DNA from: an uncultured virus (IMG/VR IMGVR_UViG_3300028903_000005)
Taxonomy: Duplodnaviria; Heunggongvirae; Uroviricota; Caudoviricetes
Strand: one strand, 5' to 3'
Length of the DNA stretch: 64,000 nucleotides
Virus record (IMG/VR): IMGVR_UViG_3300028903_000005
This document shows positions 6,030 through 40,287 of the stretch, one piece after another. The notes beneath the pieces are model-generated. The model was not told the origin of the DNA. It was given only the letters and a program-made list of their open reading frames with translations, and did no database searches. The translations under genes were made by a program, and so were the position numbers. Each line of letters opens with the position of its first letter. Position 1 is the first letter of the stretch.

Positions 6030-6296
6030 CAGAGGCACTTTGTTACAACAACGATGTCTCGTTGCAGGTGCGATCATTTCTGTCGCACTCTCATACTTTC
6101 ATATGAGATCGGACTATATCATCGATGTCGCGTCTATAGTCTCTGAACCTTCATCTTTATAAGATGCTTGGCTGCTGATTGCCCAATTATTTCTATTTTT
6201 AAAACATTCACGTTTATCATTTCTGATTGCGTTGTAGTTAGAAATACTTAAGGGTGTTCCAGCAATTTACGCGATTTTAAATCCGCACGGATTCTA
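6030..6296 (-). ncRNA. Group I self-splicing intron (267 nt, no internal ORF)
   Basis: The 5' exon ends in U and the intron ends in G. Core elements are P AAATTGCTGGAA, Q AATCAGCAGCC, R TCAGAGACTA and S GATATAGTCC. Pairings are P1 AAUCCGU/GCGGAUU, P3 UCGCGU/ACGCGA and P7 GACUA/UAGUC. Splicing restores NPNP-C-GEALL in frame (679 aa). Confidence 0.92.
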
Positions 6297-16319: not shown

Positions 16320-17186
16320 TTACTTCTTTTTAAAATATTCCTTTGGTAATATTTGTAACCCATATTTTTGGTGATGACTAATATGAGATTCTTTAAACAT
16401 TGTTATACCATTTCCAATGTCCCATAACTCCTTACATTTTAATGCATCTTCTATTGTTTTGATATTATATTCCTGTATTATTATTGATAATGGTTTAATG
16501 TGATGAACTTCTAAATTGTGATTTCCACGAATTCCCGTAAAACAATCTCTAAAGTCATCTCGTTTCATTACATTATATTTCCATATATACATTTCTGGAA
16601 GTTCACGGATTGCTCTTTCCAATTTTGATACTCCCCCTTTCCAGTTATGATTTCGTTCCCCTCTCATATTATTTCGATGTTCCATAGATTTTGGTTTATC
16701 TTTTAATGCTACACTTATTTTATCTCCGGTTCCCTCTGGCATCTTTTGACCTTTGTTCCACGCTTCCTGACCTTTATGAGCAATACTCATTAAATCTCTA
16801 GTATGTTGTGATGCTTTTTTATTTAAATGTGCGAGTCGATTTGCTTCTAATGCTTCTGGACTATGATGTACATTGTTATGTTTTCCTTTATTAGATTCCC
16901 CTATATGTTTCTTATGGTCTTCTGAAAGCGGAATGTTTTTCTTCTTGGCGCTCATCAAATCTTTAGATGATTGTTTATGTGGAATTCCCAAATTCCAAGG
17001 AGTTCTTCCCTTCATAGATTTACTTAAATTTTCACAATGTTCTTTAGTAAAAGGTGCTTTGGGTTTATTCTTTTGCGATGCACTCATTTTGTCGCGTGAT
17101 GCTTGTGAAGGATGCCTATCGGTATGCCATTCACGATTTTTACGCAACCATTCCTCACGCTTTGATGGGTCTTTTGGTGGTGGCAT
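16320..17186 (-). CDS. NUMOD3-repeat HNH homing endonuclease
   Basis: Repeated NUMOD3 motifs, NHNWKGG, and LEVHHIKP...NGITM...H. Probable start MPPPKDP. Confidence 0.85.
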   Translation of the reverse strand: MPPPKDPSKREEWLRKNREWHTDRHPSQASRDKMSASQKNKPKAPFTKEHCENLSKSMKGRTPWNLGIPHKQSSKDLMSAKKKNIPLSEDHKKHIGESNKGKHNNVHHSPEALEANRLAHLNKKASQHTRDLMSIAHKGQEAWNKGQKMPEGTGDKISVALKDKPKSMEHRNNMRGERNHNWKGGVSKLERAIRELPEMYIWKYNVMKRDDFRDCFTGIRGNHNLEVHHIKPLSIIIQEYNIKTIEDALKCKELWDIGNGITMFKESHISHHQKYGLQILPKEYFKKK

Positions 17187-17188
17187 TT

Positions 17189-17623
17189 TTACTCTTTGAA
17201 TTTTGTAATTATAGCCCCATATCCACATTTATTACATTTTGCAGCAGGGGTATATTTTCCATCAACACTCTTTTTTGATCCATTTCTTTTTATATTTTTT
17301 GATCCACACTTTGGGCACTTCATATCTTCCGATATGTGTTCTATATGCTTTCCATACATTGGGTTTTTATCCCCCATTTTAGATTTGCTAATATTCTCAC
17401 AATGTTCTTTCGAACGCGGGGGTTTTGATTTGCCTTTTAAAGAATCGCTCTGTTTTCTTTTTGTTTCTTCCGATGCTGTCATTCCCTTATTCCAAGGTTC
17501 AATGCCTTTGTGCGATTCACTCATTTTGGCTGTGGTTTCTTTTGATGGGTATTTATTGATGTGAGATTGTTTTTGGCGTTCTAACCAAATTGCGTATTTT
17601 TCTGGATCTTTTGGTGCAACCAT
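17189..17623 (-). CDS. NUMOD3-repeat DNA-binding protein with C-terminal Zn ribbon
   Basis: NUMOD3 motifs (SEETKRKQSDSLKG, KNPMYGK) and CPKCG...CNKCG. Confidence 0.75.
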   Translation of the reverse strand: MVAPKDPEKYAIWLERQKQSHINKYPSKETTAKMSESHKGIEPWNKGMTASEETKRKQSDSLKGKSKPPRSKEHCENISKSKMGDKNPMYGKHIEHISEDMKCPKCGSKNIKRNGSKKSVDGKYTPAAKCNKCGYGAIITKFKE

Positions 17624-18250
17624 ATTTAGTCCCCGCGCGGTTTTGTTTTCGTCATATCCAGTCTTTCTAGAAAACAACTTCTTCCCAATGCTTCAATACA
17701 TTCAACTTCACACAATTCTTCAAATGGGCAATCAACATCTTTAAATGCAGGAGAATTGTTTGCAAGATCAAAAATGATAAAGAATGCCTTTTTAAGTTCA
17801 TCTTTAGAAACAGGTTTTATTTTAGACATATTTTTACTCCTTTCAACCAATAATCATATTTTTACACTTTGGACACATGTAACCAATAGGCATCCATGTT
17901 CGTATACCATTCTTTTCTACGCGAATATATAACCGTTTCATTTTGCCATGCGACGGTTCATCGCTGGTCTGTTTTGAATTGCAGATCATATAATATGGTA
18001 TACACTATAAGTATTTAAATGTATCGGTTTATGTGGTAGAAACTTAAAAAGGGTGTTATAGTAATTAGAAAATTTTATTCTCCCTCGTGCCCTCAACCGG
18101 GTCGCGCGTAAACCAATAACAAATAATTTCTCTCATAGAAGTTACCGAGTGAGGTTCATTTCTCTCATGACGGATATTACAATCGTATCCAGTCAATCTA
18201 CACTTTCTGTTATTGTATCGTGTGCATTGGCGGATGAATTTCATATAATA

Positions 18251-24449: not shown

Positions 24450-24689
24450 TTAAATCTTATGATCCTTCACGTATTCCAGAAACGCCAAATATGCAAATTT
24501 CTTTCCTTCTTCTCTTGATTTGAATCCTTGAATATCATGGAAAGAAAATGCACTCATTAATTTGTCTGATGTTATCATAGGGCTTTTTACTTTATGCGAC
24601 CAGAAAAATTCAAAAGCATCTTTAGTATTGGTGAAATTCTTTGAAGTAAGAGCACCATTTGCTTTGTTGTAAATGACTTTGTAGATCAT
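24450..24689 (-). CDS. Small hypothetical protein
   Basis: Last ORF of the array; FTNTKDAFEF. Confidence 0.6.
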   Translation of the reverse strand: MIYKVIYNKANGALTSKNFTNTKDAFEFFWSHKVKSPMITSDKLMSAFSFHDIQGFKSREEGKKFAYLAFLEYVKDHKI

Positions 24690-24956
24690 TTATCCATACC
24701 TCTCCTTTTTAAAATCATAATCGTGTGCAATATATGACATTGCATCTTCTACAGATACCTTCCCACCAAGAACATCAGATGATAATTTTATTAAATGCTG
24801 TTGAACACGTGTTGGATTAAATTTAAATGTTGATTTCTTTCTTCCCTTTTTAAGATGCTCTATAAGTTGTAGATCATATTGTCGTTTTGCCACTTTCTCT
24901 GCATGTCCTTGAATAATGCGATAATATTTTGAAAGTCTTTCCGGATAATTTGTCAT
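24690..24956 (-). CDS. Small basic protein
   Basis: Coupled ORF in the array. Confidence 0.6.
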   Translation of the reverse strand: MTNYPERLSKYYRIIQGHAEKVAKRQYDLQLIEHLKKGRKKSTFKFNPTRVQQHLIKLSSDVLGGKVSVEDAMSYIAHDYDFKKERYG

Positions 24957-25120
24957 TTCATCCCCCCAATAATGGACCCCGCCAAAGCCATACCCATCCC
25001 GGCGATAGCGACGGTTCCCACCATCTTCGTTGTTGCTTCCATCGTCCTTTCCATACTTCTAATTCCCTCGAATTCGGGGGATTTGCGCTTCCGTTTTGTG
25101 GTTTTTGTTTTGCGTGGCAT
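24953..25120 (-). CDS. 55-aa protein with basic N-terminus and C-terminal hydrophobic helix
   Basis: Translated by hand: MPRKTKTTKRKRK...MVGTVAIAGMGMALAGSIIGGMK. Confidence 0.7.
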   Translation of the reverse strand: MPRKTKTTKRKRKSPEFEGIRSMERTMEATTKMVGTVAIAGMGMALAGSIIGGMK

Positions 25121-25122
25121 TG

Positions 25123-25434
25123 TTAAAACCCCATTTCTTTTCTGTGGCGTCTTACAGATTCTTCATTTTTTAAATTTATCATCTCTTCGAGGTTTTTGCG
25201 TTCTTCTTCTGTCATTGGTTTTGATTTCTTTCGAATATAAACAACCCATGCCGTGCCATTGGAATATTTTACACCCTTTATAATCGTAAGATATCCTCTC
25301 AATTTATAATTTGTTGCAATTATAGAAGCGTCTTTTTTAGACCACGGGTAATCGGATTGTGTTTTTGCACGTATATACCATAACGGGGAACCTCGAATAC
25401 TCATTCGTGGATATGTAATGTCTTCGAGTTTCAT
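25123..25434 (-). CDS. Small basic array-family protein
   Basis: SKKDASIIATNYKLRGY...WVVYIRKK matches the family pattern. Confidence 0.7.
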   Translation of the reverse strand: MKLEDITYPRMSIRGSPLWYIRAKTQSDYPWSKKDASIIATNYKLRGYLTIIKGVKYSNGTAWVVYIRKKSKPMTEEERKNLEEMINLKNEESVRRHRKEMGF

Positions 25435-25462
25435 TTCACTTCACCATTTGTTTTGCGTGGCA

Positions 25463-25777
25463 TTATGATGACCTACCGGGTTTGAATTTAATTTCATGAA
25501 GTTCTGCATACTCTTTCATTTCTTTAAGAGCTGCTATTTTTGTTGCATGATATCGATAATTCATTCTCGCTTGCCCATAATTAAGATACCATCCGTAGCG
25601 TGGTTCTTTAGAAATATAAACCTCCCTTCCACGTTTGGTATCGGGGTTTAAGAAAATCATTGATAATGCTTCTTTAGAAACCCCACGCATGAAATTATCT
25701 CTACCTTTTGCACGGGTGCTATTTGGACGAAGAGATCTCCGTTTTATACCCATTTCCATTCTTTTTGCTGTTGTCAT
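25463..25777 (-). CDS. Small basic protein
   Basis: Follows the repeat-borne RBS; HATKIAALKEM. Confidence 0.65.
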   Translation of the reverse strand: MTTAKRMEMGIKRRSLRPNSTRAKGRDNFMRGVSKEALSMIFLNPDTKRGREVYISKEPRYGWYLNYGQARMNYRYHATKIAALKEMKEYAELHEIKFKPGRSS

Positions 25778-25807
25778 TTCACTTCACCATTTGTTTTGCG
25801 TGGCATT

Positions 25808-26029
25808 TTATTTCACCAATCTTTTTATTAATTTTTCTTTTGCTGTATTTATAGCATTGGTTATATTATTAGATTCTATTTGAAATAGATGATTATATTT
25901 ATCTAAAAGCGGTTTGTCCTTTTCATGAAACGAAACAGCATAGATATTAGATTCGAAACGCGTTGGGTGAAATGCTTTAACTTCATACTGTATATTATTA
26001 ATTTGTATTATCTTTTTTGTAACAGTCAT
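25808..26029 (-). CDS. Small hypothetical protein
   Basis: Coupled ORF in the array. Confidence 0.6.
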   Translation of the reverse strand: MTVTKKIIQINNIQYEVKAFHPTRFESNIYAVSFHEKDKPLLDKYNHLFQIESNNITNAINTAKEKLIKRLVK

Positions 26030-26233
26030 TTATTTCATCCTCCCATAAATTAAATATCCACCGTGATCTTCTCTACCATCAACAGAGCAGATCATAACTC
26101 CTTGTTCTCCAAGACGTTTCTTTTCAATAGAAACTGCTCGCTTATGTGGAACAACTTCTATAAATTCATAACGACGACCACGATATTCATGTGTTGCTGG
26201 ATATGGAATTAGTTTCTTTTTTCTTGTTACCAT
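26030..26233 (-). CDS. Small basic array-family protein
   Basis: YRGRRY...HKRAV..EKKRL..QG...GYLIYGRMK. Confidence 0.7.
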   Translation of the reverse strand: MVTRKKKLIPYPATHEYRGRRYEFIEVVPHKRAVSIEKKRLGEQGVMICSVDGREDHGGYLIYGRMK

Positions 26234-26239
26234 GTTATT

Positions 26240-26422
26240 TCACACCTTCTTCGTATGCGCCCAAACCGTGTAAATGTACCTATCAACATCTTTGTCTTTA
26301 GTTACATGCACGATTTCAGTCTTATACTTCCGAATTCTCTTTGCTTCAGTATCAGCATCTTTTTTAGTGTTGTGATATCCAACAGCATAAAACTTCTTGT
26401 GGTTAAAGATTCTCGATTGCAT
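26240..26422 (-). CDS. Small basic array-family protein
   Basis: RIFNHKKF...TKKDADTEAKRIRK...YTVW. Confidence 0.75.
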   Translation of the reverse strand: MQSRIFNHKKFYAVGYHNTKKDADTEAKRIRKYKTEIVHVTKDKDVDRYIYTVWAHTKKV

Positions 26423-26425
26423 CTT

Positions 26426-26644
26426 TCACTTCCTCCCTCTCACTCCAACACAATAAGGATGCCGCCCAAACAAGCGATTTTCCTTTTTGCGTATGTAAAG
26501 AATTACTTCCTTATACATATTGGTTTCTCGCAACTTACTTATAAACCTTTCGGCTTCGGGTTTGCTGGAATACATCCACTTAATAACATAAAATTTATCA
26601 TCGATCTTTTGACGAAATCCGGGGTGGGCTTCTAGGTAGGACAT
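26426..26644 (-). CDS. Small basic array-family protein
   Basis: KIDDKFY...SKPEAERFISKLRE...YCVGVRGRK. Confidence 0.7.
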   Translation of the reverse strand: MSYLEAHPGFRQKIDDKFYVIKWMYSSKPEAERFISKLRETNMYKEVILYIRKKENRLFGRHPYCVGVRGRK

Positions 26645-26839
26645 TCAAATCCCCAACTTCTTTTCCATCTTTTTCAATTCAACATAATACTGTGAACTTT
26701 CTAAAAGATGATCTTTCGCAATTGCTTTTGCCACACGCTTACTTTTAGTGTGTTCAAGTTCAACTTTGATACCATATTTTAATTGAGTGGGATTGAAAAA
26801 AGAATCTGGATATTTTGAACCTTTACCTCCAACGTTCAT
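26645..26839 (-). CDS. DUF5661-like protein
   Basis: QLKYGIKVELEHT...AKAIAKDHLLE...YY..LKKME motif. Confidence 0.7.
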   Translation of the reverse strand: MNVGGKGSKYPDSFFNPTQLKYGIKVELEHTKSKRVAKAIAKDHLLESSQYYVELKKMEKKLGI

Positions 26840-26842
26840 GGT

Positions 26843-27028
26843 TTAAAACCTCGAAGTAGAAAACCTACGATTATCATCTATAATTTTCCGTTCAATTTCT
26901 TTAAGGGTAGTGCGTTGATAAGTAGCATACGGAGTTTTGAGAATGTATGATTTGCCATCGCGCTCGAAATCAAATCCACACGTCTTTGCGAATTTCTTAA
27001 TGTAGTCGTATGTTATTTTTGTGGACAT
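26843..27028 (-). CDS. Small hypothetical protein
   Basis: Coupled ORF in the array. Confidence 0.6.
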   Translation of the reverse strand: MSTKITYDYIKKFAKTCGFDFERDGKSYILKTPYATYQRTTLKEIERKIIDDNRRFSTSRF

Positions 27029-27030
27029 TT

Positions 27031-27237
27031 TTAAAACACCCTTTCACATTCGCGCTTGAAAAATTTCATAGCATCCTTTTTGTTACTCCGCATTGCAGAA
27101 ACGGTTTCGCCATTCTTTTTTACAACGTATCCAGAATACTTGATCCCATTAATATCTTTTATGGTTTCGTGTTCAAGAGTAACAGTGCCATAACCTTTCT
27201 TTGTTTTTGTTTTAAGAATTGTCATTCCAATCACCAC
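27031..27237 (-). CDS. Small basic protein
   Basis: SNKKDAMKFFK. Confidence 0.6.
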   Translation of the reverse strand: MVIGMTILKTKTKKGYGTVTLEHETIKDINGIKYSGYVVKKNGETVSAMRSNKKDAMKFFKRECERVF

Positions 27238-27416
27238 TCATATGTATCAAATCTGTTTCCACCACGGCTTTTCTTAAATGCATGTTTACCTTTATGCCGC
27301 CTTCCGAAATATAGATCATCAACAGCAAGTTTGGTTGGTTCATAACCACCCATCATAGAACTGCGACGGTGGACTTTTGATTTTGTGCGTGTTCCGTATT
27401 TTCTTGTGGATGTCAT
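27231..27416 (-). CDS. Very basic small protein
   Basis: R/K/G-rich; probable start MTSTRK. Confidence 0.6.
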   Translation of the reverse strand: MTSTRKYGTRTKSKVHRRSSMMGGYEPTKLAVDDLYFGRRHKGKHAFKKSRGGNRFDTYEW

Positions 27417-27417
27417 T

Positions 27418-27672
27418 TTATTTCCCCCCACGTGTTACCATAGCACCGGTGCGACGATATGATCTACCTGCCCGTTTCGATATTGTTGATTTGTGATGTT
27501 TAGGAAGCAATCGTTTATCTTGTTTCCTCCATTCTTTCATAGATCCCGCAATGGAACCACCAACACCGTGTAATTCTTTCAACCATTTCTTTGGTGGTTT
27601 TAAAACTGTATCTCCCCCCTCATTAACAGCATATTTGACACTTCTGCTCCCAACTCTGCGTTTAGTTACCAT
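27418..27672 (-). CDS. Very basic small protein
   Basis: R/K-rich; PPKKWL motif. Confidence 0.65.
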   Translation of the reverse strand: MVTKRRVGSRSVKYAVNEGGDTVLKPPKKWLKELHGVGGSIAGSMKEWRKQDKRLLPKHHKSTISKRAGRSYRRTGAMVTRGGK

Positions 27673-27678
27673 TCCAAT

Positions 27679-27882
27679 CTACCTCAATTTCCCATTATAA
27701 AATTCATGCGCGGTCTTTTCAATAAGATGAAGTCTCCAATTCTTCCCAACCTTTTTGACTTCGTAGCGTTTAATCATACTACCAAGTTTCTGCACGTAAG
27801 TCAGACCAACCGCGCGCTGCCCGGCTTTCTGTGCATCAATTTTGGTTGGGTATTCACCTTCAACGTATCGTTTCCTTGACAT
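27679..27882 (-). CDS. Small basic array-family protein
   Basis: YPTKIDAQKAG...VKKVGKNWRLHL. First ORF after the internal promoter. Confidence 0.65.
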   Translation of the reverse strand: MSRKRYVEGEYPTKIDAQKAGQRAVGLTYVQKLGSMIKRYEVKKVGKNWRLHLIEKTAHEFYNGKLR

Positions 27883-28012
27883 TTCACAACCTCTAGATAT
27901 ACTTTCTACGTTATAGAAAATATTGCTATGTCTAATAGGTTAAATGTCAAAGTATAAATAGTTATCTATTGTGGAAAAAGAGAAAATGTTTGTTTGTTGT
28001 TATAGGTATAAT

Positions 28013-28300
28013 TCATCCATAATATTGATATGGACTATAAACATATAAAACATTAATGGTGGCTATATCTTTACTCAACCCAACTCTTTTATTCATGTTA
28101 TAAGGATCGTGATATCTAATATAATGTTTAAATGTTTTAATCAAATATTTATTTGCTGGCCAATTCTTTTTCTCGCTTTCGGCACGTCGTTCATACATGG
28201 ATTTTGTAGCACCATAAACAAGAAGTTTATATCTATGTCCACGGTGGTTTATAGTTTTTGGAAGATCATCTTCAAGATATCCAAGAATTTTGTTTGCCAT
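28013..28300 (-). CDS. Small basic array-family protein
   Basis: INHRGHRY...ATKSMYERRAES. Confidence 0.6.
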   Translation of the reverse strand: MANKILGYLEDDLPKTINHRGHRYKLLVYGATKSMYERRAESEKKNWPANKYLIKTFKHYIRYHDPYNMNKRVGLSKDIATINVLYVYSPYQYYG

Positions 28301-28310
28301 TTTAACACCT

Positions 28311-28562
28311 CTACTTATTCGCCCTATCCGCATTCAACAACGCATTCGCGCGCTTCTTCATAAGTGCCGTTACACGAACCATCTTATTTCCAGTTTGGGT
28401 TGGGTTGTGTGCAATCATCCCAATTTTGGTATCCACGATTGCTTGGAGGAAAGTCAATGGAATCTTTACATTGGGAGAAATCCCCAATTGCCTGTGGAAA
28501 GTTCCTTTGCCTGCATTTTTGAATGCTTCTGCCATCCAGTTGTTTGTTTTTCTTCCGGCCAT
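28311..28562 (-). CDS. Basic viral hypothetical protein
   Basis: W..EA....KG.FH.QLG.....KIP...KRA pattern, which I recognise from phage hypothetical proteins. Confidence 0.65.
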   Translation of the reverse strand: MAGRKTNNWMAEAFKNAGKGTFHRQLGISPNVKIPLTFLQAIVDTKIGMIAHNPTQTGNKMVRVTALMKKRANALLNADRANK

Positions 28563-28573
28563 TTTATATCACA

Positions 28574-28747
28574 TCAATATATTAAATAATCTTTGTAGTG
28601 TGGATTATCTTTACGTTCTTTTGCTGCACGTCTAGATTTTGATCCACGGCTACGAGTAGTTTCAACTTCTTTTCTGCGCTCCGGGCGAGTACTTTTGCGT
28701 GTTATATTTTTCCGAGCAGTGTGAATGCCATATCGTTCTTTTGCCAT
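28574..28747 (-). CDS. Arg-rich, protamine-like 57-aa protein
   Basis: Translated by hand: MAKERYGIHTARKNITRKSTRPERRKEVETTRSRGSKSRRAAKERK... Confidence 0.6.
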   Translation of the reverse strand: MAKERYGIHTARKNITRKSTRPERRKEVETTRSRGSKSRRAAKERKDNPHYKDYLIY

Positions 28748-28749
28748 TT

Positions 28750-28908
28750 TTACTCCCTATTATGCCCGCGCCCGCCAATAATATGCACGCGGCCAAGTGG
28801 GTTCTTGTTCATCATCGTATTCTCACCATCAGGCTGCAAAGCAACCCTGTCGCTACCGCCACCCGCTTGTTTTGCGCGATTCATAAGGCCAAAGATATCT
28901 ACTTTCAT
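28750..28908 (-). CDS. 52-aa microprotein, paralog B
   Basis: MKVDIFGLMNR...GENTMM...LGRVHIIGGRGHNRE. Confidence 0.65.
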   Translation of the reverse strand: MKVDIFGLMNRAKQAGGGSDRVALQPDGENTMMNKNPLGRVHIIGGRGHNRE

Positions 28909-28909
28909 C

Positions 28910-29068
28910 TCAATCCCTATTTCCACCGCGCCCGGCAATGCTCTTGAAGCGTCCGAGAAGCCCGTTGGGAAGCATACTCTCTCCCTGTGCTCCGGGCACG
29001 CTGTCTTGGCGTTCCTTCGTGTAACCAGCAGTGCGATCCATGATTCCTTTTAAGTCAGGTGTCTTCAT
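28910..29068 (-). CDS. 52-aa microprotein, paralog A
   Basis: MKTPDLKGIMDR...GESML...LGRFKSIAGRGGNRD. Confidence 0.65.
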   Translation of the reverse strand: MKTPDLKGIMDRTAGYTKERQDSVPGAQGESMLPNGLLGRFKSIAGRGGNRD

Positions 29069-29256
29069 AGTGTCTTAACTTTCCCGAGGATTTTGGTTGT
29101 TTCCTCTTTGGTTTTACCCCACGCATTATTGGCGTCAAGCGGTTGTCCGTTGTGCTTATTATGGAGTATTGTTTGATCAGTTGTATGCTCGATGTATTTA
29201 AACCTTTTGGTTAGTTTTTCGTTTTCTTCGTTGGCTACGTTAAAGAGGTGGGTCAT
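29065..29256 (-). CDS. Small hypothetical protein
   Basis: MTHLFNVANEENEKLTKRFKYIEHTT... Confidence 0.6.
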   Translation of the reverse strand: MTHLFNVANEENEKLTKRFKYIEHTTDQTILHNKHNGQPLDANNAWGKTKEETTKILGKVKTL

Positions 29257-29257
29257 T

Positions 29258-29467
29258 TTAGCGCCTCCCAAACCACCCTCGTTTCAGATTGGCCATATCA
29301 TCCATCGGATCGAGTTTCATGTTCTTGATACGTTTCCGATCTTCTCTTTCAAAACGGTTTGCTTCGGACAAAACCGCTCGGCGCAACACGGGATCTTTGT
29401 TTGCTTCATTCGCTGTTACACCAAAAGTTCGAAGGGCTTTGCGAATATATTTAGTCGAATCTGTCAT
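29258..29467 (-). CDS. Small basic helical protein
   Basis: GAGG RBS; lies between the duplicated gene starts. Confidence 0.65.
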   Translation of the reverse strand: MTDSTKYIRKALRTFGVTANEANKDPVLRRAVLSEANRFEREDRKRIKNMKLDPMDDMANLKRGWFGRR

Positions 29468-29519
29468 TCTTTCTACCTCGTTATTCTTATTTTTCTATTG
29501 TGTTCGTCTTTTAGAAAAT

Positions 29520-29600
29520 TCATGTTGTATGCTCCATATACTTAAACCTTTTGGTTAGTTTTTTGTTTTCTTCGTTGGCTGTGTGGAAAATGCATTTCAT
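29520..29600 (-). pseudogene. Truncated duplicate of the 5' end of 29065..29256
   Basis: MKCIFHTANEENKKLTKRFKYMEHTT*. The DNA is near-identical to 29180-29256 at an offset of 344 bp. Confidence 0.75.
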
Positions 29601-29601
29601 T

Positions 29602-29808
29602 TTAATCAACCCCCGGTTTGTTTGATCTTGAATAAATATGATAACATGATTTTCCGCTCATATCTTTACCTTTAATAACTCTTACACGAAATCCCCAATG
29701 TCCTTGGTTCTTCAAATTATTTGCATGATATTTTGTAGAATCTTTAGTATATACTGTCATTTCATAATAATAATTTTTCCCATCTCTAATAATTGGATTT
29801 GTTGGCAT
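29602..29808 (-). CDS. Small basic array-family protein
   Basis: IRDGKNY...TKDSTKYHANNLKNQG...VRVIK...YHIYSR. Confidence 0.75.
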   Translation of the reverse strand: MPTNPIIRDGKNYYYEMTVYTKDSTKYHANNLKNQGHWGFRVRVIKGKDMSGKSCYHIYSRSNKPGVD

Positions 29809-30114
29809 ATTATTTCCTCTCCACCATCTTCTTCGTCTCTTTTTCTGCACGCTCTACAACACCCGGCACAAATTTAATTTTTTCTGCTGGGTTATACTTA
29901 ATTACGTCCATCGGATCGAGTTTTTCTAATCCACCGGTTGGGGTTTTCATGATTACTTCCTCGCCTTCCTAACCACAATGTTGGGATGATACCCATCGTG
30001 TTCAACAAGCGATTTCTTCACATCTTTTGTAGTTTCCTTTGTGTTATTTGAATAAAACACGGTGTCGATAATGCGACCTTTAAAATATACGTTAAATGCT
30101 GTGGTCATTTTTAA

Positions 30115-30459
30115 TCATTTCCTCATCATTTTCTTTTTAATCTCTCTCGCTTCATCAGCAATCTCACTGCTCATTCCAGCAAGAAGTTCCACGGCAATTG
30201 CACGCTTGGTTGATGCAGGAACCGCCCCAACTCTCGTTTCATTATACTCTTCAAATGCTCGTTTGAACTTCTTTATTCCGCTTTCTGCGAGATACATAAC
30301 AAGTTTAATGGCTTTGTCTCGTTCGTAAATTCCTTTTGCTTTCTTCTTTGCAAGGTTTTCAACAATTGGACGATACTGTTGACGGTAGAGAGTCCCATCA
30401 CTTTCTACAGAATCAACAATATACTGCGCCAATCCTCCGATACGTGTTCCAGATCTCAT
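30115..30459 (-). CDS. Helical hypothetical protein
   Basis: LYRQQY.PI..NL.KKKAKG.Y...KA motif. Confidence 0.7.
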   Translation of the reverse strand: MRSGTRIGGLAQYIVDSVESDGTLYRQQYRPIVENLAKKKAKGIYERDKAIKLVMYLAESGIKKFKRAFEEYNETRVGAVPASTKRAIAVELLAGMSSEIADEAREIKKKMMRK

Positions 30460-30460
30460 T

Positions 30461-30697
30461 TTAAATCCTCGCTCCTTTCGCCACAAACACACCATACCGA
30501 AGTCTCCCCGCCTCTGGCCCAAGATCGACAACAATAGCAAGTGTCATATTATTCGGGTGCATTCGTCCCGCATATGTTCCCAAATCGCGTGCAGATGCCT
30601 TTGCAGTCTGTACGTTTTCATACGCATCATAAATTGAATATACATGACCACGAAATGCGTAGCGCGTGGTGTCTGGTGATTTTGCTCTGTGGATCAT
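30461..30697 (-). CDS. Small basic array-family protein
   Basis: FRGHVY...TAKASARDL...RYGVFV. Confidence 0.7.
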   Translation of the reverse strand: MIHRAKSPDTTRYAFRGHVYSIYDAYENVQTAKASARDLGTYAGRMHPNNMTLAIVVDLGPEAGRLRYGVFVAKGARI

Positions 30698-30930
30698 TAT
30701 GATTTCCTCTTCGTTCTAATATAAATTCCATATACCGAATTCGCAAGCCCAAGTTTTGTCGCATGAACTATTGCACCATATCCTTCTTTACGAAGTTTCT
30801 TTGCTTGCCCCTCGGCATGTGAATATGATTGATAATCAGCAGCAAAATAAGTATAAATATGACCACGAGAAGTTACTTTTTCTGGATATTTATATAATTT
30901 GCGTGTTTCCTCCGAACCATGAAATACCAT
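30697..30930 (-). CDS. Small basic array-family protein
   Basis: SRGHIY...HAEGQAKKLRKEGY...YGIYIRTK. Confidence 0.75.
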   Translation of the reverse strand: MVFHGSEETRKLYKYPEKVTSRGHIYTYFAADYQSYSHAEGQAKKLRKEGYGAIVHATKLGLANSVYGIYIRTKRKS

Positions 30931-31112
30931 TACCTCTTCTCCCTCCTCTGAATCAACCTATGTGAATATTCCTTTTCATTATCACGATAATCTTTAAGTC
31001 TTGCACGTGCTTCACGGTAATCTTCGGAAGAAATAAGATCTTCCCATCCATAACCATAATTGCCTTGCACTACAAAAAGATATTCGTATTTGTTTTTGCG
31101 TTTTGTTGGCAT
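30930..31112 (-). CDS. Small hypothetical protein
   Basis: VQGNYGYGWED...EARARLKDYRDNE motif. Confidence 0.65.
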   Translation of the reverse strand: MPTKRKNKYEYLFVVQGNYGYGWEDLISSEDYREARARLKDYRDNEKEYSHRLIQRREKR

Positions 31113-31279
31113 GATTAATTATCTCCTATTAGACTTACGGCTACCTTTTACTTTTCTTACTTTGTGTGTTTTCACAATTATATTTCTTTGTGTTTGTCCA
31201 TAAATTGTTTCGCGTATTGATTCTCTTTTGGGATTTAAATAATCGTGATATTTAACAGTTTTGGTTTTTCCCTTTATTG

Positions 31280-31513
31280 TCATACAACCACAATCCTTCC
31301 CCCTCTCGAAGAGGTGGGAACTAATGTAATTTTGTTGTTCTCCAAGTCTTTACGAATTTCCGATTGTCCTACAGATACAGGTACGGGATCTTCGGGATCT
31401 CCAAGAATCTTGCTCTTGTAAGGATAACTACGACCCCCAACACGCCGTCCCTTTGGAACAGTCATTGTGAGATTGCCTTTTGCGCGCGAGTAGCGGCCTA
31501 TTTCGATACTCAT
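31280..31513 (-). CDS. Small hypothetical protein
   Basis: Coupled ORF in the array. Confidence 0.55.
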   Translation of the reverse strand: MSIEIGRYSRAKGNLTMTVPKGRRVGGRSYPYKSKILGDPEDPVPVSVGQSEIRKDLENNKITLVPTSSRGGRIVVV

Positions 31514-31698
31514 TTCTTAATCCTCCACCCGCGATAAACTACGTATTCTTTACCAACTTTCTTTATGAAACTATACCAACCGTTTTTCTTCAAATATTCT
31601 TTTTCATGCGTTGCATCTGCTTTTTTAGAAACAATTGCACCGCGCTGATATTCAATGTTTCCCTTTATAATTTTTAACGGGCCGTAATTTGTGGTCAT
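31510..31698 (-). CDS. Small basic array-family protein
   Basis: KKADATHEKEYLKKNGWYSFIKK...YVVYR. Confidence 0.7.
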   Translation of the reverse strand: MTTNYGPLKIIKGNIEYQRGAIVSKKADATHEKEYLKKNGWYSFIKKVGKEYVVYRGWRIKK

Positions 31699-31702
31699 AT
31701 TT

Positions 31703-31930
31703 TCACCTGTGTTTCTCCACATAAAGCCTTGCAATTGCTCTCATCGTTGCAGGCCAGAGATTTCCGAAGAAATATGTTCCTACTTCATATTCATCCTTCG
31801 GACTCATACCGAGTCTTTTTAAATCGGATTTATATGATTGTTTTGTTGCATATGATAATGAATTCCACCAACCGCTGATGTCGCGCTTGGGAATTCCATA
31901 AAGTTTCTCTGCTGCGTGTGGGCCGGGCAT
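31703..31930 (-). CDS. Small helical hypothetical protein
   Basis: WWNSLS motif; TAATG coupling. Confidence 0.6.
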   Translation of the reverse strand: MPGPHAAEKLYGIPKRDISGWWNSLSYATKQSYKSDLKRLGMSPKDEYEVGTYFFGNLWPATMRAIARLYVEKHR

Positions 31931-32112
31931 TATTTTTTCTCCGCAAAATATGTTGACCAATATCCATTATCATTTTTGATTGCACGAGCAAGAAAACCCC
32001 TTTCACGTAGTTCGTCTGCCTGTTTTGTTGCAATCGTTTTAGAAGTTGTGTGAATTCCAGTTCGGTGATACTTTCGATGATTGATAATTCGTTCCCAAGG
32101 TGGTGATGACAT
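31930..32112 (-). CDS. Small basic array-family protein
   Basis: RIINHRKY...SKTIATKQADELRERGFLARAIK...WSTYF. Confidence 0.75.
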   Translation of the reverse strand: MSSPPWERIINHRKYHRTGIHTTSKTIATKQADELRERGFLARAIKNDNGYWSTYFAEKK

Positions 32113-32300
32113 TACTTCCGCCTCACATAAACATTATAAAACCCAACGCGCTCTTTCTCAATACGCGTGTAGTAACCTTCCGCTTCATACTTCTTCTGCC
32201 AGTTGCGCGCGCTTTTCAAACTGCGAACGGTGTGCTTCTTTCGGAAAAGCATACCGCCAAAGCGTTCTGTTTTTTCATTGAGTCCTGTGTGGTGTTCCAT
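32112..32300 (-). CDS. Small basic array-family protein
   Basis: RFGGMLF...SLKSARNWQKKYEAEGYYTRIEK...YNVYVRRK. Confidence 0.75.
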   Translation of the reverse strand: MEHHTGLNEKTERFGGMLFRKKHTVRSLKSARNWQKKYEAEGYYTRIEKERVGFYNVYVRRK

Positions 32301-32301
32301 G

Positions 32302-32541
32302 TTATTTTACCTCCCTTTCATAAATAGCATATCTTTTCTGTGGGAAACTACGTTTATTTTTATATACTTGTAATACAAATGGGATTTTAATGTAACTAAA
32401 ATTCGAATGAATCTTTTCTAATTTATGAATCATATCATTACAATTGGATAAATTGTCGTAATTATAATGAGTAAAATACCATCTCTTTCCATATCGATTA
32501 ATTTGACCCGGAATTTCTCCAATATCCATATAGTGTTCCAT
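32302..32541 (-). CDS. Small array-family protein (divergent)
   Basis: RYGKRWY...YAIYER. Confidence 0.6.
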   Translation of the reverse strand: MEHYMDIGEIPGQINRYGKRWYFTHYNYDNLSNCNDMIHKLEKIHSNFSYIKIPFVLQVYKNKRSFPQKRYAIYEREVK

Positions 32542-32542
32542 G

Positions 32543-32746
32543 TTATTTCCTCTTATGATATAATATTTCTTTAATTCTTTCCCATTTGATTTCATCAACA
32601 GTGGGTTTTATTCTAACTACTAGCATTCCCCTCTGTTTATCTTTTCGAATGAGATCGTCAACAGTTTCTTTATCAACAGTGTTTCCAATTTTAATCCACT
32701 GTTCATAAATTTTACCATTGATTTTTCTTTTATGTGAAGATTTCAT
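32543..32746 (-). CDS. Small basic array-family protein
   Basis: RKINGKIY...DKETVDDLIRKDKQRGMLVVRIK. Confidence 0.7.
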   Translation of the reverse strand: MKSSHKRKINGKIYEQWIKIGNTVDKETVDDLIRKDKQRGMLVVRIKPTVDEIKWERIKEILYHKRK

Positions 32747-32751
32747 TTTTA

Positions 32752-32949
32752 TCACTTGTTGATCCATATAATATAAAAATGCCCGCCACCGTGACGCTTT
32801 GCAATATTATATTTGGATATTCTTGCAGAATGCCCATGCGCGCGAATAAGTTTTGCTGTACGTTCTGCACCCTCCTTTGTCGGTTCTGTTCCATAACGTT
32901 TATAGTATTTACCATCAAACTTTTTAACTTCCCATGCTCGTTCAGTCAT
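32752..32949 (-). CDS. Small basic array-family protein
   Basis: KKFDGKYY...TKEGAERTAKLIRAHGHSARISK...YIIW. Confidence 0.8.
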   Translation of the reverse strand: MTERAWEVKKFDGKYYKRYGTEPTKEGAERTAKLIRAHGHSARISKYNIAKRHGGGHFYIIWINK

Positions 32950-32951
32950 GA

Positions 32952-33179
32952 TTATTTCCTCCAATAAATCCTATATCCAATAGTAGTCTCTCCGTTCTTT
33001 ACACGAACAATACGAACTTCCTCCCCTCGCGCTCTACGATTCTTTGCAATGTTATCTGCTTCATATTTATTCCCTACGGTGTAGGGATCGATAAATCCAC
33101 GGTGCATTTTGTCGCTTGGTTGAACACGAAGTTCAAACTTCTTTCCGTCAAATACTCGTGATGTTTTAATTGTGGGCAT
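32952..33179 (-). CDS. Small basic array-family protein
   Basis: RVFDGKKF...NKYEADNIAKNRRARGEEVRIVR...GYRIYWRK. Confidence 0.8.
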   Translation of the reverse strand: MPTIKTSRVFDGKKFELRVQPSDKMHRGFIDPYTVGNKYEADNIAKNRRARGEEVRIVRVKNGETTIGYRIYWRK

Positions 33180-33185
33180 TCTTAA

Positions 33186-33386
33186 TCACCTCATCCAAAT
33201 TCTATAAAATACAACCTTTCTTCGTTCTGTTGGGTGGATTTCTTTTGCCTTTGTAATTCTTACTTGCCCACCAGTGCTCATTATTTTACGCTTTACTCTT
33301 TCGGCGACATCTTTTGAAAGAGATCCGCCGTAATACCCGAAGGACTTCCCATCGAATTTCCTTGTGCTGTATTGATTAATTACCAT
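33186..33386 (-). CDS. Small basic array-family protein
   Basis: RKFDGKSF...SKDVAERVKRKIMSTGGQVRITK...YRIWMR. Confidence 0.8.
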   Translation of the reverse strand: MVINQYSTRKFDGKSFGYYGGSLSKDVAERVKRKIMSTGGQVRITKAKEIHPTERRKVVFYRIWMR

Positions 33387-33444
33387 CTTTCCACATCCCT
33401 CAATTTGTCTCATAAAAGAAACAATTTGATAATAAATCTTAAAC

Positions 33445-33470
33445 GCTAATACTATATAAAACTTTCTACA
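33445..33470 (-). promoter_or_regulatory. Archaeal BRE-TATA promoter for the small-gene array
   Basis: Minus strand reads GAAAGTTTTATATAGTA upstream of the first array ORF. Confidence 0.6.
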
Positions 33471-33852: not shown

Positions 33853-34515
33853 TTAAGTTTTCATTCTCACTTTAAACCCATCAAAGATTTCACTCATTCT
33901 TATATCATACAAGAAATCTTCAAACGGTTTAATATTAACCTCATCGGGAAGCATTGATTTTTCCTTTGCGACATCAAGAAGTCTAAACCACTTTCCGATA
34001 TTCTCATTTGTCACTTCATCTTCGGGAGGTTTGAATTCAATTTTGTGGTTCATCAACATTGTAACACCAAATTGAAGTGTTCGCATGGTTGTTGCTTTGC
34101 TTTTCATTGGATCTTTCACAGTTGCGCGTTTTATAGCATCATTAAGTTGTGAATGTGCCATTCCGTTGATTGATGCATATGATGATTTTGAGATATTGTT
34201 AATAGTGATTTCCCGGAGTTTTACAAGCCACTCGCTGTCCATATGAACAATTGGCGAACAAACATTCCATATTGCATTGACATTGCCTTTCTTAAGCAGA
34301 TTAACAAGATGTCCGATTTCCATATACTGCGCATCAATTTCTTTACCTTCGTAAATATAAGACTTTGCTGCACGTGTCTTTTCAAATGTGCTGCTACGCA
34401 GGTATTCGGAGGATGGTTGTTGGAATACATGGAACAGATCATAATCACTGGAAAGGGTTTCCATCCCCCACATGCGTGAGCCTACTTCGGTGATGAAAAG
34501 GTAGTCGGTGGTCAT
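33853..34515 (-). CDS. Pol-beta-superfamily nucleotidyltransferase (RlaP/YcgL-like)
   Basis: GSRMWGMETLSSDYDL (GS...DxD) and EIGHLVNLLKKGNVN motifs. Confidence 0.8.
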   Translation of the reverse strand: MTTDYLFITEVGSRMWGMETLSSDYDLFHVFQQPSSEYLRSSTFEKTRAAKSYIYEGKEIDAQYMEIGHLVNLLKKGNVNAIWNVCSPIVHMDSEWLVKLREITINNISKSSYASINGMAHSQLNDAIKRATVKDPMKSKATTMRTLQFGVTMLMNHKIEFKPPEDEVTNENIGKWFRLLDVAKEKSMLPDEVNIKPFEDFLYDIRMSEIFDGFKVRMKT

Positions 34516-37049: not shown

Positions 37050-37325
37050 TCATTCAAACACCCCCTCGTTATCCTTCAAAACCTGAAACAACTGCGTTGC
37101 CAAAGTCTGAATTACACGGTGTTTGAGTTTCAATTCATTCTCTTCATTGATAACTTCAATCACTTCATGCAAAAGAGTAGCCAATGCCATGTCGTGTTGG
37201 AGCGTTTCATCCAAGTGAATAACGGCAGATCCGAAAATGATTTTTCCGGAAGCATCAATAACTTTAGAATCGGCGGGAATTATTTTATATCTAACCCCAC
37301 CAATTTTAATATCATCGGGCATCAT
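37050..37325 (-). CDS. Small zincin-like protein
   Basis: TLLHEVIEVI (HExxE variant) with IKIGG.RYKI N-terminus. Confidence 0.6.
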   Translation of the reverse strand: MMPDDIKIGGVRYKIIPADSKVIDASGKIIFGSAVIHLDETLQHDMALATLLHEVIEVINEENELKLKHRVIQTLATQLFQVLKDNEGVFE

Positions 37326-37672
37326 AAAAGTTTTAACCCCTTTGTTATATTATCTATTTTTTCATCTTCGTCCGGTCCAATCGCAATGCAAGTAAGAGTA
37401 TTTGGGGCGATTTGTGTAAGGCCGAAATCCCGAACGGGATTGACTTGCAGCTGATTGAATAACGCCATTTCTCCAATCCGTTTAAGTTCGCGTTCATCAA
37501 CAACTTTTAACACAATTTTCTTTTGTCCTTCGGAAAACCATTGTTCTCCTTCATGTGTTCCATTTGCCATACGATAAGCAATAACAGAAGCGTGGCCAAC
37601 TTGCCCTGCTATTTTACCACAGGACATATCTAAATCTTTACGAACAACGATTGCTAATTTCATAAAAAGCAT
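37322..37672 (-). CDS. pth2: Peptidyl-tRNA hydrolase 2 (archaeal/eukaryotic type)
   Basis: VVRKDLDMSCGKIAGQVGHA, GQKKIVLKV, VRDFGLTQI...T.IAIGP and IDNITKGLKLL motifs. Confidence 0.93.
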   Translation of the reverse strand: MLFMKLAIVVRKDLDMSCGKIAGQVGHASVIAYRMANGTHEGEQWFSEGQKKIVLKVVDERELKRIGEMALFNQLQVNPVRDFGLTQIAPNTLTCIAIGPDEDEKIDNITKGLKLL

Positions 37673-39687: not shown

Positions 39688-40287
39688 TTATATTCCATTA
39701 CTTTTCTGCATCAAAGTCGTCAATTCTCCCATTGAAGGGGTAGCATAGTGTTCTTGAACCGTACTTACTTTATCTCCTATCAGTGCGGCAACTTGTTCTA
39801 TTGTCCATCCTTCTTCTTGTTTAAGCTTAATACACGTTGATCTCATTGCATGAATTGGTATTGGTGTTGGAATACCAGCCTTCTTACACAAATCATTGAA
39901 GATATTATACGCGGTCTTGCTACTCATTGATCCCCCTTCGCGCACGTTCTGTCTAGCAGGGAACAAATATTTTTGTCCTTTATCAGTGTGTTCTTTGATA
40001 TATAACGACAATTCGTGTGCAAGTTCGTTGGTGATAGGAACAGTTTTAACTCTATTACCCTTTTTCTTTTCATGATATGACAGCATGGGGGCACTTGGAT
40101 TCAGATCAATATTGGATATTTCAACGCGCACGAGATCATCCCTTCGCAATCCGAGTGTAAACCCTATCATAATAAGCATTTTATCTTCATACGAGTTTGC
40201 AGCCATCAATACGGCATTTGCTTGTTTACGATTAAGCGCCTTTTCCCCAGTGGTATAATGTTTCTGAAATTCAAAAGCCATGATCAT
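39688..40287 (-). CDS. Tyrosine recombinase/integrase, catalytic domain only
   Basis: GLRRDDL (R), EKKKG (K), HAMR (HxxR) and IGDK...EHY (Y) motifs. Confidence 0.88.
   Translation of the reverse strand: MIMAFEFQKHYTTGEKALNRKQANAVLMAANSYEDKMLIMIGFTLGLRRDDLVRVEISNIDLNPSAPMLSYHEKKKGNRVKTVPITNELAHELSLYIKEHTDKGQKYLFPARQNVREGGSMSSKTAYNIFNDLCKKAGIPTPIPIHAMRSTCIKLKQEEGWTIEQVAALIGDKVSTVQEHYATPSMGELTTLMQKSNGI

What the first reader, a model, noticed from the sequence alone, without database searches (positions are those of the whole stretch)
24450..33413. 9-kb array of tiny basic proteins dominated by one highly diversified paralog family
Seen in the sequence: more than 30 co-oriented, translationally coupled ORFs of about 45-115 aa. 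About 15 of them share the pattern [RK]x[FI][DN]G[KR]x[YF]...[TS]KxxAxxxAxx[LI]RxxGxxx[RK]IxK...Yx[IV][YW]xRK. Examples are 33186, 32952, 32752, 32543, 32112, 31930, 31510, 30697, 30461, 29602, 26426, 26240, 26030 and 25123. Their DNA is not visibly similar, so the family is old and diversified. Inference: a beta-hairpin/alpha/beta-beta mini-fold, loosely SPOR-like, expanded as a repertoire of nucleic-acid or host-protein binders. Possible roles are early host takeover, anti-defence or anti-CRISPR activity, or virion nucleoproteins. I do not recognise this family or this architecture. It is my top candidate for an undescribed system.
Basis: partly seen in the sequence, partly recalled or inferred. 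Interest (0 to 1): 0.88.

Follow-up and report, generated by a model that had tools for sequence, protein, structure and literature searches.

The report
Viral array of basic SPOR-like mini-proteins
A tailed, probably archaeal, virus carries a 9-kb run of 40 tiny, strongly basic genes, 14 of them old copies of one uncharacterised small protein family that is common in viral metagenomes and whose function is still unknown.

Summary
Window 24450-33413 (minus strand) holds 40 tightly packed genes of 46-114 aa. 36 of 40 have a Shine-Dalgarno-like motif, and 34 of 39 junctions are 10 nt or less. A profile built only from 90 non-window proteins ranks exactly these 14 above 1000 shuffled decoys and every other window ORF. 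AlphaFold predicts beta-hairpin/helix/beta-hairpin (pLDDT 83). Several weak, overlapping signals all point to the SPOR domain as the nearest named fold, but homology is not shown (hhalign probability 9.8%).

The family matches no Pfam model above the gathering score, and no PHROG or NCBIfam model. It still has 1202 clusters in metagenomes and often occurs in local multi-copy clusters. Orthologues are under purifying selection (dN/dS about 0.13). Related strains differ by deletion or replacement of whole genes.

All 40 array proteins are positively charged (+11.4 per 100 aa), against +0.1 for the virus's other small proteins. My best reading is an accessory operon of polyanion or nucleic-acid binders. 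That is inferred, not shown. The family is new; viral arrays of small paralogues are a known pattern.

The parts
24450..33413 (-). Array of 40 small, tightly packed, SD-led genes (46-114 aa). All 40 products have a net positive charge.
33186..33386 (-). Family member, 66 aa from the SD-led ATG at 33386. An alternative start at 33413 gives 75 aa.
   Evidence: E 7.5e-14 with the external-only profile
32952..33179 (-). Family member (75 aa).
   Evidence: 3.5e-13
32752..32949 (-). Family member (65 aa). This is the protein modelled: beta-beta-alpha-beta-beta, pLDDT 83.
   Evidence: 1e-16
32543..32746 (-). Family member (67 aa; alternative start 32767).
   Evidence: 3.5e-6
32112..32300 (-). Family member (62 aa), with many close orthologues in metagenomes.
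   Evidence: 1.8e-12
31930..32112 (-). Family member (60 aa). Contigs of related strains skip it as a whole gene.
   Evidence: 5.7e-15
31510..31698 (-). Family member (62 aa; alternative start 31734). It is weakest in the leave-one-out test but clear with the external profile.
   Evidence: 14 of 300 shuffles reach it; 5.2e-9
30697..30930 (-). Family member (77 aa). It is the only window member with a Pfam SPOR match, and that match is below threshold.
   Evidence: E 0.0028, 18.4 bits, gathering score 21; 1.8e-13
30461..30697 (-). Family member (78 aa), the most divergent.
   Evidence: 4.2e-5
29602..29808 (-). Family member (68 aa; alternative start 29850).
   Evidence: 2e-14
26426..26644 (-). 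Family member (72 aa).
   Evidence: 1 of 300 shuffles reaches it; 2.9e-12
26240..26422 (-). Family member (60 aa). A contig of a related strain skips exactly this gene.
   Evidence: 2e-10
26030..26233 (-). Family member (67 aa).
   Evidence: 8.9e-10
25123..25434 (-). Family member (103 aa) with a C-terminal helical extension. A model from its own orthologues alone gives the same strand and helix order at low confidence.
   Evidence: pLDDT 60.7; 1.5e-8
33451..33466 (-). BRE/TATA-like box (GAAAG TTTTATATA) in the 68-nt gap upstream of the array. It is a candidate promoter of the operon.
   Evidence: sequence reading; inference
28750..29068 (-). Two adjacent 52-aa paralogues of a second small family (28750-28908 and 28910-29068).
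   Evidence: E 5e-5 both ways
29520..29600 (-). 26-codon remnant of a duplicate of gene 29065-29256. It lies in an 81-nt direct repeat that is 83% identical.
25431..25464 (-). 34-nt gene-junction sequence repeated exactly at 25774-25807. The junction motif has three copies spaced 343 nt apart (25104, 25447, 25790), around gene bodies that show no significant similarity to each other.
26645..26839 (-). Non-family array gene, DUF5661.
   Evidence: E 1.4e-13
29953..30108 (-). Non-family array gene, phrog_6353 (unknown function).
   Evidence: E 1.6e-11
30930..31112 (-). Non-family array gene, phrog_34889 (unknown function).
   Evidence: E 2.3e-8

Best explanation
Shown:
- The region is the distal part of a long minus-strand block of small genes in a tailed virus. 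The block starts at the integrase gene.
- The region encodes 40 real, purifying-selected mini-proteins.
- 14 of them are anciently diverged paralogues of a roughly 60-aa domain predicted as beta-hairpin/helix/beta-hairpin. SPOR is the closest named fold.
- The family is widespread in viral metagenome contigs and often sits in local multi-copy clusters.
- Related strains differ by whole-gene indels.

Inferred:
- The proteins stay in the cytoplasm, because they have no hydrophobic segment.
- Their uniform strong positive charge means they bind polyanions, most likely nucleic acid (viral or host DNA or RNA).
- By the alternation of side chains along strands, the conserved residues F..GK.Y, K..A...A..L...G and Y.VY.R probably build the scaffold, while the variable positions give each paralogue its own target.
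- The gene-by-gene turnover marks the block as an accessory repertoire for host interaction (take-over or counter-defence), not as core replication or structural genes.
For: - Real genes: SD-like motif in 36 of 40 starts against 17% of control ATGs. Pooled dN/dS is 0.13 for the 5 family and 0.13 for the 8 other orthologue pairs with locus L001.
- Family.
- Fold: pLDDT 83, pTM 0.65; same order of elements, pLDDT 60.7.
- Viral and widespread: 1202 clusters at E<=1e-3. The nearest Atlas clusters are 96-100% viral. 37 of 44 pattern-matched metagenome loci hold a member and 20 of those 37 hold two or more, up to 6 in 3.8 kb.
- Absent from cell genomes of the candidate host phylum: 3 of 215 genomes have a match, one of them the MAG (metagenome-assembled genome) that holds the viral contig. 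In that MAG all 13 matches lie on that one contig.
- Charge: 40 of 40 array proteins are positive, mean +11.4 per 100 aa. The virus's other small proteins are 18 of 41 positive, mean +0.1 (Mann-Whitney p 1.6e-11). The 147 top relatives have a median net charge of +12 at a median 66 aa.
- No signal peptide or membrane segment: the maximum 15-aa Kyte-Doolittle mean is 0.89 or less in all 14.
- Turnover: each of the 15 listed joints in related-strain contigs skips 1-3 whole genes. 19 of 30 joint ends lie within 12 nt of a gene boundary, against 14% by chance. The relative L001 has 11 members in one array with a different order and partly different paralogues.
Against: - Nothing here shows nucleic-acid binding. 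No known nucleic-acid-binding family matches.
- The only named look-alike, SPOR, binds peptidoglycan glycans, not nucleic acid (established knowledge).
- Charge alone does not give a ligand.
- Expression timing is unknown. Contigs from RNA libraries cover parts of the array but cannot prove transcription.
- The scaffold-versus-variable-face argument rests on reasoning from the alignment, not on coordinates.
- Joints come from metagenome contigs laid at 85% likeness, many with only 30-nt sides, so some may come from more distant relatives.
Confidence: 0.45

Rival explanations
1. The paralogues are a protein-binding inhibitor repertoire. Each blocks a different host protein, for example a defence or CRISPR effector, and none binds nucleic acid.
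For: Whole-gene turnover between strains and different repertoires in related viruses. The scaffold is conserved while other positions vary. [quoted passage not shown]
Against: Strong uniform positive charge, also in the 26 non-family neighbours. Characterised anti-defence proteins are more often acidic or neutral (recalled, not tested). No PADLOC or Acr comparison was run. The genes are operonic and SD-led, whereas the early anti-defence genes described in PMC11065993 are single genes with their own BRE/TATA promoter.
Confidence: 0.2
2. They are virion-packaged internal proteins that are ejected with the DNA, like the small basic internal proteins of T4-type phages, whose locus is also hypervariable (recalled).
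For: The proteins are small, basic and numerous, and the locus is plastic. In marine contigs the domain sits at the C-terminus of three consecutive proteins of 262-694 aa, as a targeting or anchoring module might.
Against: There is no shared N-terminal targeting peptide. Only Met1 is invariant and the first residues do not align. The array lies in the integrase-proximal small-gene block, far from the tail-like genes at 56-63 kb. No virion data exist.
Confidence: 0.12
3. They are true SPOR domains that bind cell-wall glycan.
For: SPOR is the only recurrent Pfam match and the nearest named fold. One carrier contig, L050, also encodes SLT and M15 peptidoglycan hydrolases.
Against: No signal peptide or membrane anchor in any of the 14. 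The model has one helix instead of SPOR's two. hhalign probability is 9.8% against an alignment of four E. coli SPOR domains. The likely host is an archaeon without peptidoglycan. Fourteen copies have no precedent among SPOR proteins (recalled).
Confidence: 0.04
4. The ORFs are not functional genes but chance open frames in AT-rich DNA.
For: They are very short, and most lack database matches.
Against: SD-like motif in 36 of 40. dN/dS about 0.13. Orthologues occur on many independent contigs. Family profile significance. A confident fold prediction.
Confidence: 0.01

Closest known systems
SPOR domain (Pfam PF05036; FtsN, DamX, DedD, RlpA, CwlC)
   Same: About 35 residues of strand/helix/strand with the motif K..A...A..L...G followed by a strand. 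SPOR is the nearest named fold in four searches.
   Different: The family has one helix and an extra N-terminal hairpin (beta-beta-alpha-beta-beta) instead of beta-alpha-beta-beta-alpha-beta. It has no export signal, is strongly basic, is virus-encoded and occurs in many copies. Homology is not significant (hhalign 9.8%), and the window proteins score below the gathering score.
AcrID1 paralogue clusters of rudiviruses (PMC11065993, passages read)
   Same: Many diverged small paralogues clustered in an accessory region of an archaeal virus. Low sequence identity between copies.
   Different: No sequence comparison was made. The AcrID1 genes are mostly single genes with their own early BRE/TATA promoter. 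Here the genes form one SD-coupled operon, and the products are strongly basic.
Hypervariable internal-protein locus of T4-type phages (recalled, no call)
   Same: Small basic proteins in a locus that differs between close relatives.
   Different: No capsid-targeting peptide is shared here. Packaging was not tested.
Designed EHEE mini-proteins (5vli, 5jg9) and ring-building motifs (PrgK, EscJ)
   Different: They are designed or unrelated proteins. The match shows only that this is a common minimal alpha/beta arrangement.

Membership tests
SPOR (PF05036) | Sequence match at or above Pfam's gathering score (21 bits) | tested here: not met
   0 of 14 window members reach it. The best is g30697 at 18.4 bits, E 0.0028. 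Among 147 distant relatives, 13 match at E<=0.01 and 4 reach 21 bits.
SPOR (PF05036) | Profile-profile homology to bona fide SPOR domains | tested here: inconclusive
   hhalign of A4 against four E. coli SPOR domains (FtsN, DamX, DedD, RlpA) gives probability 9.8%, E 0.0032, over 36 columns. The SPOR profile had only 4 sequences.
SPOR (PF05036) | RNP-like fold beta-alpha-beta-beta-alpha-beta made of two repeats with two helices | tested here: not met
   The models have beta-beta-alpha-beta-beta with one core helix. These are predictions only.
SPOR (PF05036) | Structural superposition on solved SPOR domains | tested here: inconclusive
SPOR (PF05036) | Exported or membrane-anchored so that it reaches the cell wall | tested here: not met
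   No hydrophobic 15-aa window above a Kyte-Doolittle mean of 0.89 in any of the 14. No dedicated signal-peptide predictor was run.
SPOR (PF05036) | Binds denuded peptidoglycan glycan strands | not testable with these tools
   Needs biochemistry.
T4-type internal proteins | Shared N-terminal capsid-targeting sequence with a protease site | tested here: not met
   Only Met1 is invariant and the N-terminal residues are unaligned. The definition is recalled.
T4-type internal proteins | Present inside the virion | not testable with these tools
   Needs particle proteomics.
Early anti-defence genes of archaeal viruses (PMC11065993) | Each gene preceded by the virus's conserved BRE/TATA regulatory sequence | tested here: not met
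   34 of 39 junctions are 10 nt or less, with SD motifs. A TATA-like box lies upstream of the array. The virus's recurrent TAAATACT-N9-TATACT box lies before other genes, not before array genes.
Known archaeal or bacterial chromatin proteins (Alba, Cren7/Sul7d, histone, HU) | Match to the family model | tested here: not met
   No such Pfam match for any of the 40 proteins at E<=1. No NCBIfam match for the 14 family members.

The most novel reading that the evidence does not exclude
The SPOR-like mini-domain is a previously unrecognised nucleic-acid-binding module that is widespread in tailed viruses, with 1202 clusters or more. This virus, possibly of a small-genome (DPANN-type) archaeon, deploys it together with 26 other basic mini-proteins as a fast-turnover operon. 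The products coat, shield or sequester nucleic acids: its own genome, host RNAs, or nucleic-acid components of host immunity. On this reading a glycan-binding fold has been re-used for nucleic acid.
Probability: 0.25. Interest if true: 0.8.

Novelty: new variant of a known kind. Interest (0 to 1): 0.6.

Why it matters
The family is large (1202 clusters at 50% identity) and appears mostly viral. No Pfam model is matched above the gathering score, and no PHROG or NCBIfam model is matched. It is small enough (about 60 aa) for quick biochemistry and structure work. One array offers 14 natural variants on one scaffold, plus natural gain and loss variants in wastewater viromes. That makes 'what do the many tiny early genes of viruses do?' directly testable for one case. 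If the host link to a 1.1-Mb archaeon holds, it would also be a look at how a virus of 110-140 kb manipulates a very small cell.

Tried and rejected
- Extra members: my candidates 28013-28300 and 32302-32541 were not supported (63 and 132 of 300 shuffles reach them; E 0.2 and 1).
- jackhmmer from single paralogues inside the window did not converge on the family.
- Homodimer prediction of g32752 returned no verdict. Nothing is drawn from it.
A single distant member, P0169, found nothing in viral contigs. A degenerate motif pattern found 0 stretches in viral contigs.
- tblastn of P0103 against 50,697 phage records found no match at E<=0.01.
- PHROGs: 0 of 100 members of A4 match. NCBIfam: 0 of 14.
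- Foldseek found nothing at E<=0.001 in the PDB or BFVD.
- The two Paenibacillus loci from the genome scan (L003, L004) are chance matches inside a larger ORF.
- Sigma-70-type promoter sites (59 found against 58.0 expected) and hairpin terminators (13 against 11.9) are not enriched.
- Pfam on larger proteins that carry the domain, and on 99 neighbours in 13 loci, gave no informative fusion or conserved neighbour, except RlaP in one locus.
- Atlas feature scores were all under 0.9, so they are leads only.
- Parts of the array without cover in the RNA-library contigs, and the runs with small shares, are not interpreted.
- Literature searches: 'SPOR domain' with 'archaeal virus' found 0 papers. 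'SPOR-like' with 'phage' found 3 papers; the 2 listed have unrelated titles and were not opened. 'small basic proteins/paralogs/phage/tandem/early genes' gave nothing relevant among the 8 listed.


Full report
**Observation.**
- The ORF listing and start curation by upstream sequence give 40 co-oriented minus-strand genes between 24450 and 33413. They are 46-114 aa (median 67) and 96% of the span is coding.
- 36 of 40 starts have an SD-like 4-mer at -16..-4, against 34 of 200 other ATGs on the same strand.
- 34 of 39 junctions are 10 nt or less and 8 overlap.
- The two larger gaps are 130 and 134 nt. The second holds a 26-codon remnant of a duplicate of gene 29065-29256.
- The co-oriented block of small genes continues upstream to the integrase gene at 39688-40287.

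**Is the family real?**
- Pairwise phmmer finds only a few significant pairs, and jackhmmer from one member stalls.
- In a leave-one-out test the other members are realigned, a profile is built, and the held-out protein is scored against 300 shuffles of itself. 26426 is reached by 1 of 300 and 31510 by 14 of 300.
- A profile built only from 90 metagenome proteins, with no window sequence, puts exactly these 14 at the top of 1382 sequences. That set is all window ORFs plus 1000 shuffles. The 14 score E 1e-16 to 4.2e-5, the best decoy 3.8e-4 and the best other window ORF 0.2. Caveat: the 90 proteins were themselves found with a window-seeded profile.
- Pairwise identity among the 14 is 9-33%, median 20%.
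- No further member exists in the window. Two look-alikes that I added failed.

**Fold and the SPOR question.**
- AlphaFold2 on g32752 with alignment A3 gives E8-11, E14-22, H25-37, E41-49, E56-64 (pLDDT 83.1, pTM 0.65).
- A second model, of the most remote paralogue (25123), was built from its own orthologues only. It has the same order of elements plus a C-terminal helix, at low confidence (pLDDT 60.7).
- Foldseek finds nothing at E<=0.001 in the PDB or BFVD.
- Pfam: one window member matches SPOR below threshold (18.4 bits against 21). Among the 147 best distant relatives, SPOR is the only recurrent family: 13 of 147 at E<=0.01, of which 4 reach the gathering score.
- CwlC is the best natural PDB sequence hit of the family profile, but it is not significant (E 0.17 and 0.051).
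- The Atlas's own model of relative P0103 has SPOR-domain clusters as its first named structural neighbours (TM 0.62-0.72).
- Against this, hhalign with four E. coli SPOR domains gives only 9.8% probability, and the model has one helix where SPOR has two.
- Conclusion: SPOR-like in shape; membership not shown.

**Distribution.**
- The exhaustive profile search finds 1202 clusters at E<=1e-3 among 1.84 billion representatives, 6 of them at E<=1e-10. Most are 55-80 aa, some hold two domains (111-191 aa), and one has four matched stretches in 697 aa.
- No PHROG (0 of 100 members) or NCBIfam model (0 of 14) matches. tblastn of one member finds nothing in 50,697 phage records.
- The clusters looked up are all from metagenomes and unnamed, apart from MAG labels and generic 'hypothetical protein' names.
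- The nearest Atlas clusters are 96-100% viral (scores below 0.9, so leads only).
- A motif pattern pulled 44 metagenome loci. 37 hold a member at E<=1e-3, and 20 of the 37 hold two or more within short contigs, up to 6 in 3.8 kb. GC ranges from 26 to 49%. Local multi-copy clusters are therefore typical of the family.
- One carrier contig (L050) encodes SLT and M15 peptidoglycan hydrolases, as a bacteriophage would. The family therefore does not appear confined to archaeal viruses.

**The virus and its host.**
- The window encodes a family B DNA polymerase, a ribonucleotide reductase, DNA methylases, homing endonucleases, an integrase, PTH2 (peptidyl-tRNA hydrolase), an RlaP nucleotidyltransferase, a tail-fibre-like protein and one tRNA.
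- The polymerase's best phage-database matches are tailed haloarchaeal viruses (31-34% identity).
- TATA-like boxes peak 26-37 nt upstream of first ATGs. Many are preceded by an A-rich, BRE-like stretch, followed by a start without an SD, or both. Sigma-70-type sites are not enriched.
- A 138,951-bp relative (L001 = L002; CheckV 84% complete) is filed in a 1.1-Mb MAG titled 'archaeon' that encodes archaeal ribosomal protein S8e. Proteins from a contig of that same length are also named Candidatus Paceibacterota in NCBI.
- In that MAG all 13 family matches lie on the viral contig, at 51.1-59.4 kb.
- Only 3 of 215 genomes of its phylum (0.6-1.5 Mb each) have any match.
- I rate an archaeal host at about 0.7.

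**Selection and turnover.**
- Thirteen orthologue pairs with L001 give pooled dN/dS of 0.13, for family and non-family genes alike.
- L001 has close orthologues (60% identity or more) of 5 of the 14 paralogues, other members that the window lacks, and a different gene order.
- Contigs of four runs were laid on the array, from wastewater and activated-sludge samples. Each of the 15 listed joints skips 1-3 whole genes, for example exactly 26240-26422 and exactly 31930-32112.
- 19 of 30 joint ends lie within 12 nt of a gene boundary, against 14% expected. Many joints have short sides and were laid at 85% likeness, so some may come from more distant relatives.
- A 34-nt junction sequence is repeated exactly around gene bodies that show no significant similarity to each other, at 343-nt spacing. 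This fits cassette exchange by recombination at gene junctions.

**Charge.**
- All 40 array proteins are net positive, mean +11.4 per 100 aa (family +12.1, the 26 others +11.0).
- The virus's other small proteins average +0.1, with 18 of 41 positive (p 1.6e-11).
- Distant relatives are just as basic (median +12 in 66 aa).
- No family member has a hydrophobic segment.

**Mechanism.**
- Shown: real genes, one family, a mini-fold, viral distribution, multi-copy clusters, purifying selection, gene-level turnover and uniform basicity.
- Inferred: cytoplasmic binders of polyanions, most likely nucleic acid, forming an accessory host-interaction repertoire.
- Rivals: protein-binding inhibitors (0.2), packaged internal proteins (0.12), true glycan-binding SPOR domains (0.04).
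- Expression timing, ligand and virion presence remain untested. RNA-library contigs cover parts of the array but do not prove transcription.

**Novelty.**
- The protein family is undescribed as far as the libraries and three literature searches show (listings only).
- The architecture, clustered and diverged small paralogues in a viral accessory region, has precedents such as the AcrID1 clusters of rudiviruses (passages of PMC11065993).
- I therefore rate it a new variant of a known kind, of moderate to high interest.

Noticed in passing
window 6090-6306 (-), between ORFs 6277-6990 and 4684-6018: A group I intron (Rfam RF00028, 75.6 bits, E 2e-17) splits the ribonucleotide reductase large-subunit gene into an N-terminal and a C-terminal ORF.
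   Followed up: partly
window 1563-4136 (-): An 857-aa N6/N4 DNA methylase with an inserted stretch that gives below-threshold Intein_splicing and LAGLIDADG_3 matches. It may be an intein.
   Followed up: no
window 16320-17677 (-) and 49600-50370 (+): NUMOD3/HNH-type homing-endonuclease ORFs. Together with the intron and the possible intein, the virus carries several selfish elements.
   Followed up: no
window 39437-39414, 39230-39208, 37698-37676, 33716-33694, 11154-11132, 10754-10732 (all -): A recurrent box (A-rich, then TTAAATACT or TATAAATACT, N9, TATACT). In five of the six copies it ends a few nt before an ATG without an SD. It looks like a virus-specific archaeal BRE/TATA promoter for leaderless transcripts. 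TATA-like boxes peak 26-37 nt upstream of first ATGs across the window.
   Followed up: partly
window 25104-25817: Three copies of a gene-junction motif at exact 343-nt spacing, two of them sharing 34 identical nt. They flank two gene bodies of about 103 aa that show no significant similarity to each other. Each junction holds a stub of the 'MPRKT' start of gene 24953-25120.
   Followed up: partly
L001 = L002 (G001, G002 contig C3): A 138,951-bp relative of the virus is filed in a 1.1-Mb MAG titled 'archaeon', while proteins from a contig of that same length are named Candidatus Paceibacterota in NCBI. The binning of this virus group is therefore inconsistent.
   Followed up: partly
window 33853-34515 (-); L019 3067-3669 (+): An RlaP (RNA-repair-associated) nucleotidyltransferase gene lies within 2 kb of the family cluster, both in the window and in a separate 77.5-kb metagenome contig. 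The window also has PTH2 at 37322-37672 in the same block.
   Followed up: no
L023 529-5450 (+); L021 861-2405 (-): In marine contigs the domain sits at or near the C-terminus of larger proteins: 694, 667 and 262 aa in three consecutive genes of L023, and 329 and 181 aa in L021. The 262- and 329-aa proteins have a Cys-rich N-terminus. No Pfam family is found for the rest of these proteins.
   Followed up: partly
window 24953-25120 (-): The only array protein with a hydrophobic segment (15-aa Kyte-Doolittle mean 2.03). It has a very basic N-terminus and a Gly/Ala-rich hydrophobic C-terminus, and may be a tail-anchored membrane peptide.
   Followed up: no
window 56622-61568 (-): A 1648-aa ORF with no Pfam or PHROG match, next to a glycine-rich, CarboxypepD_reg tail-fibre-like protein (61805-63058).
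   Followed up: no
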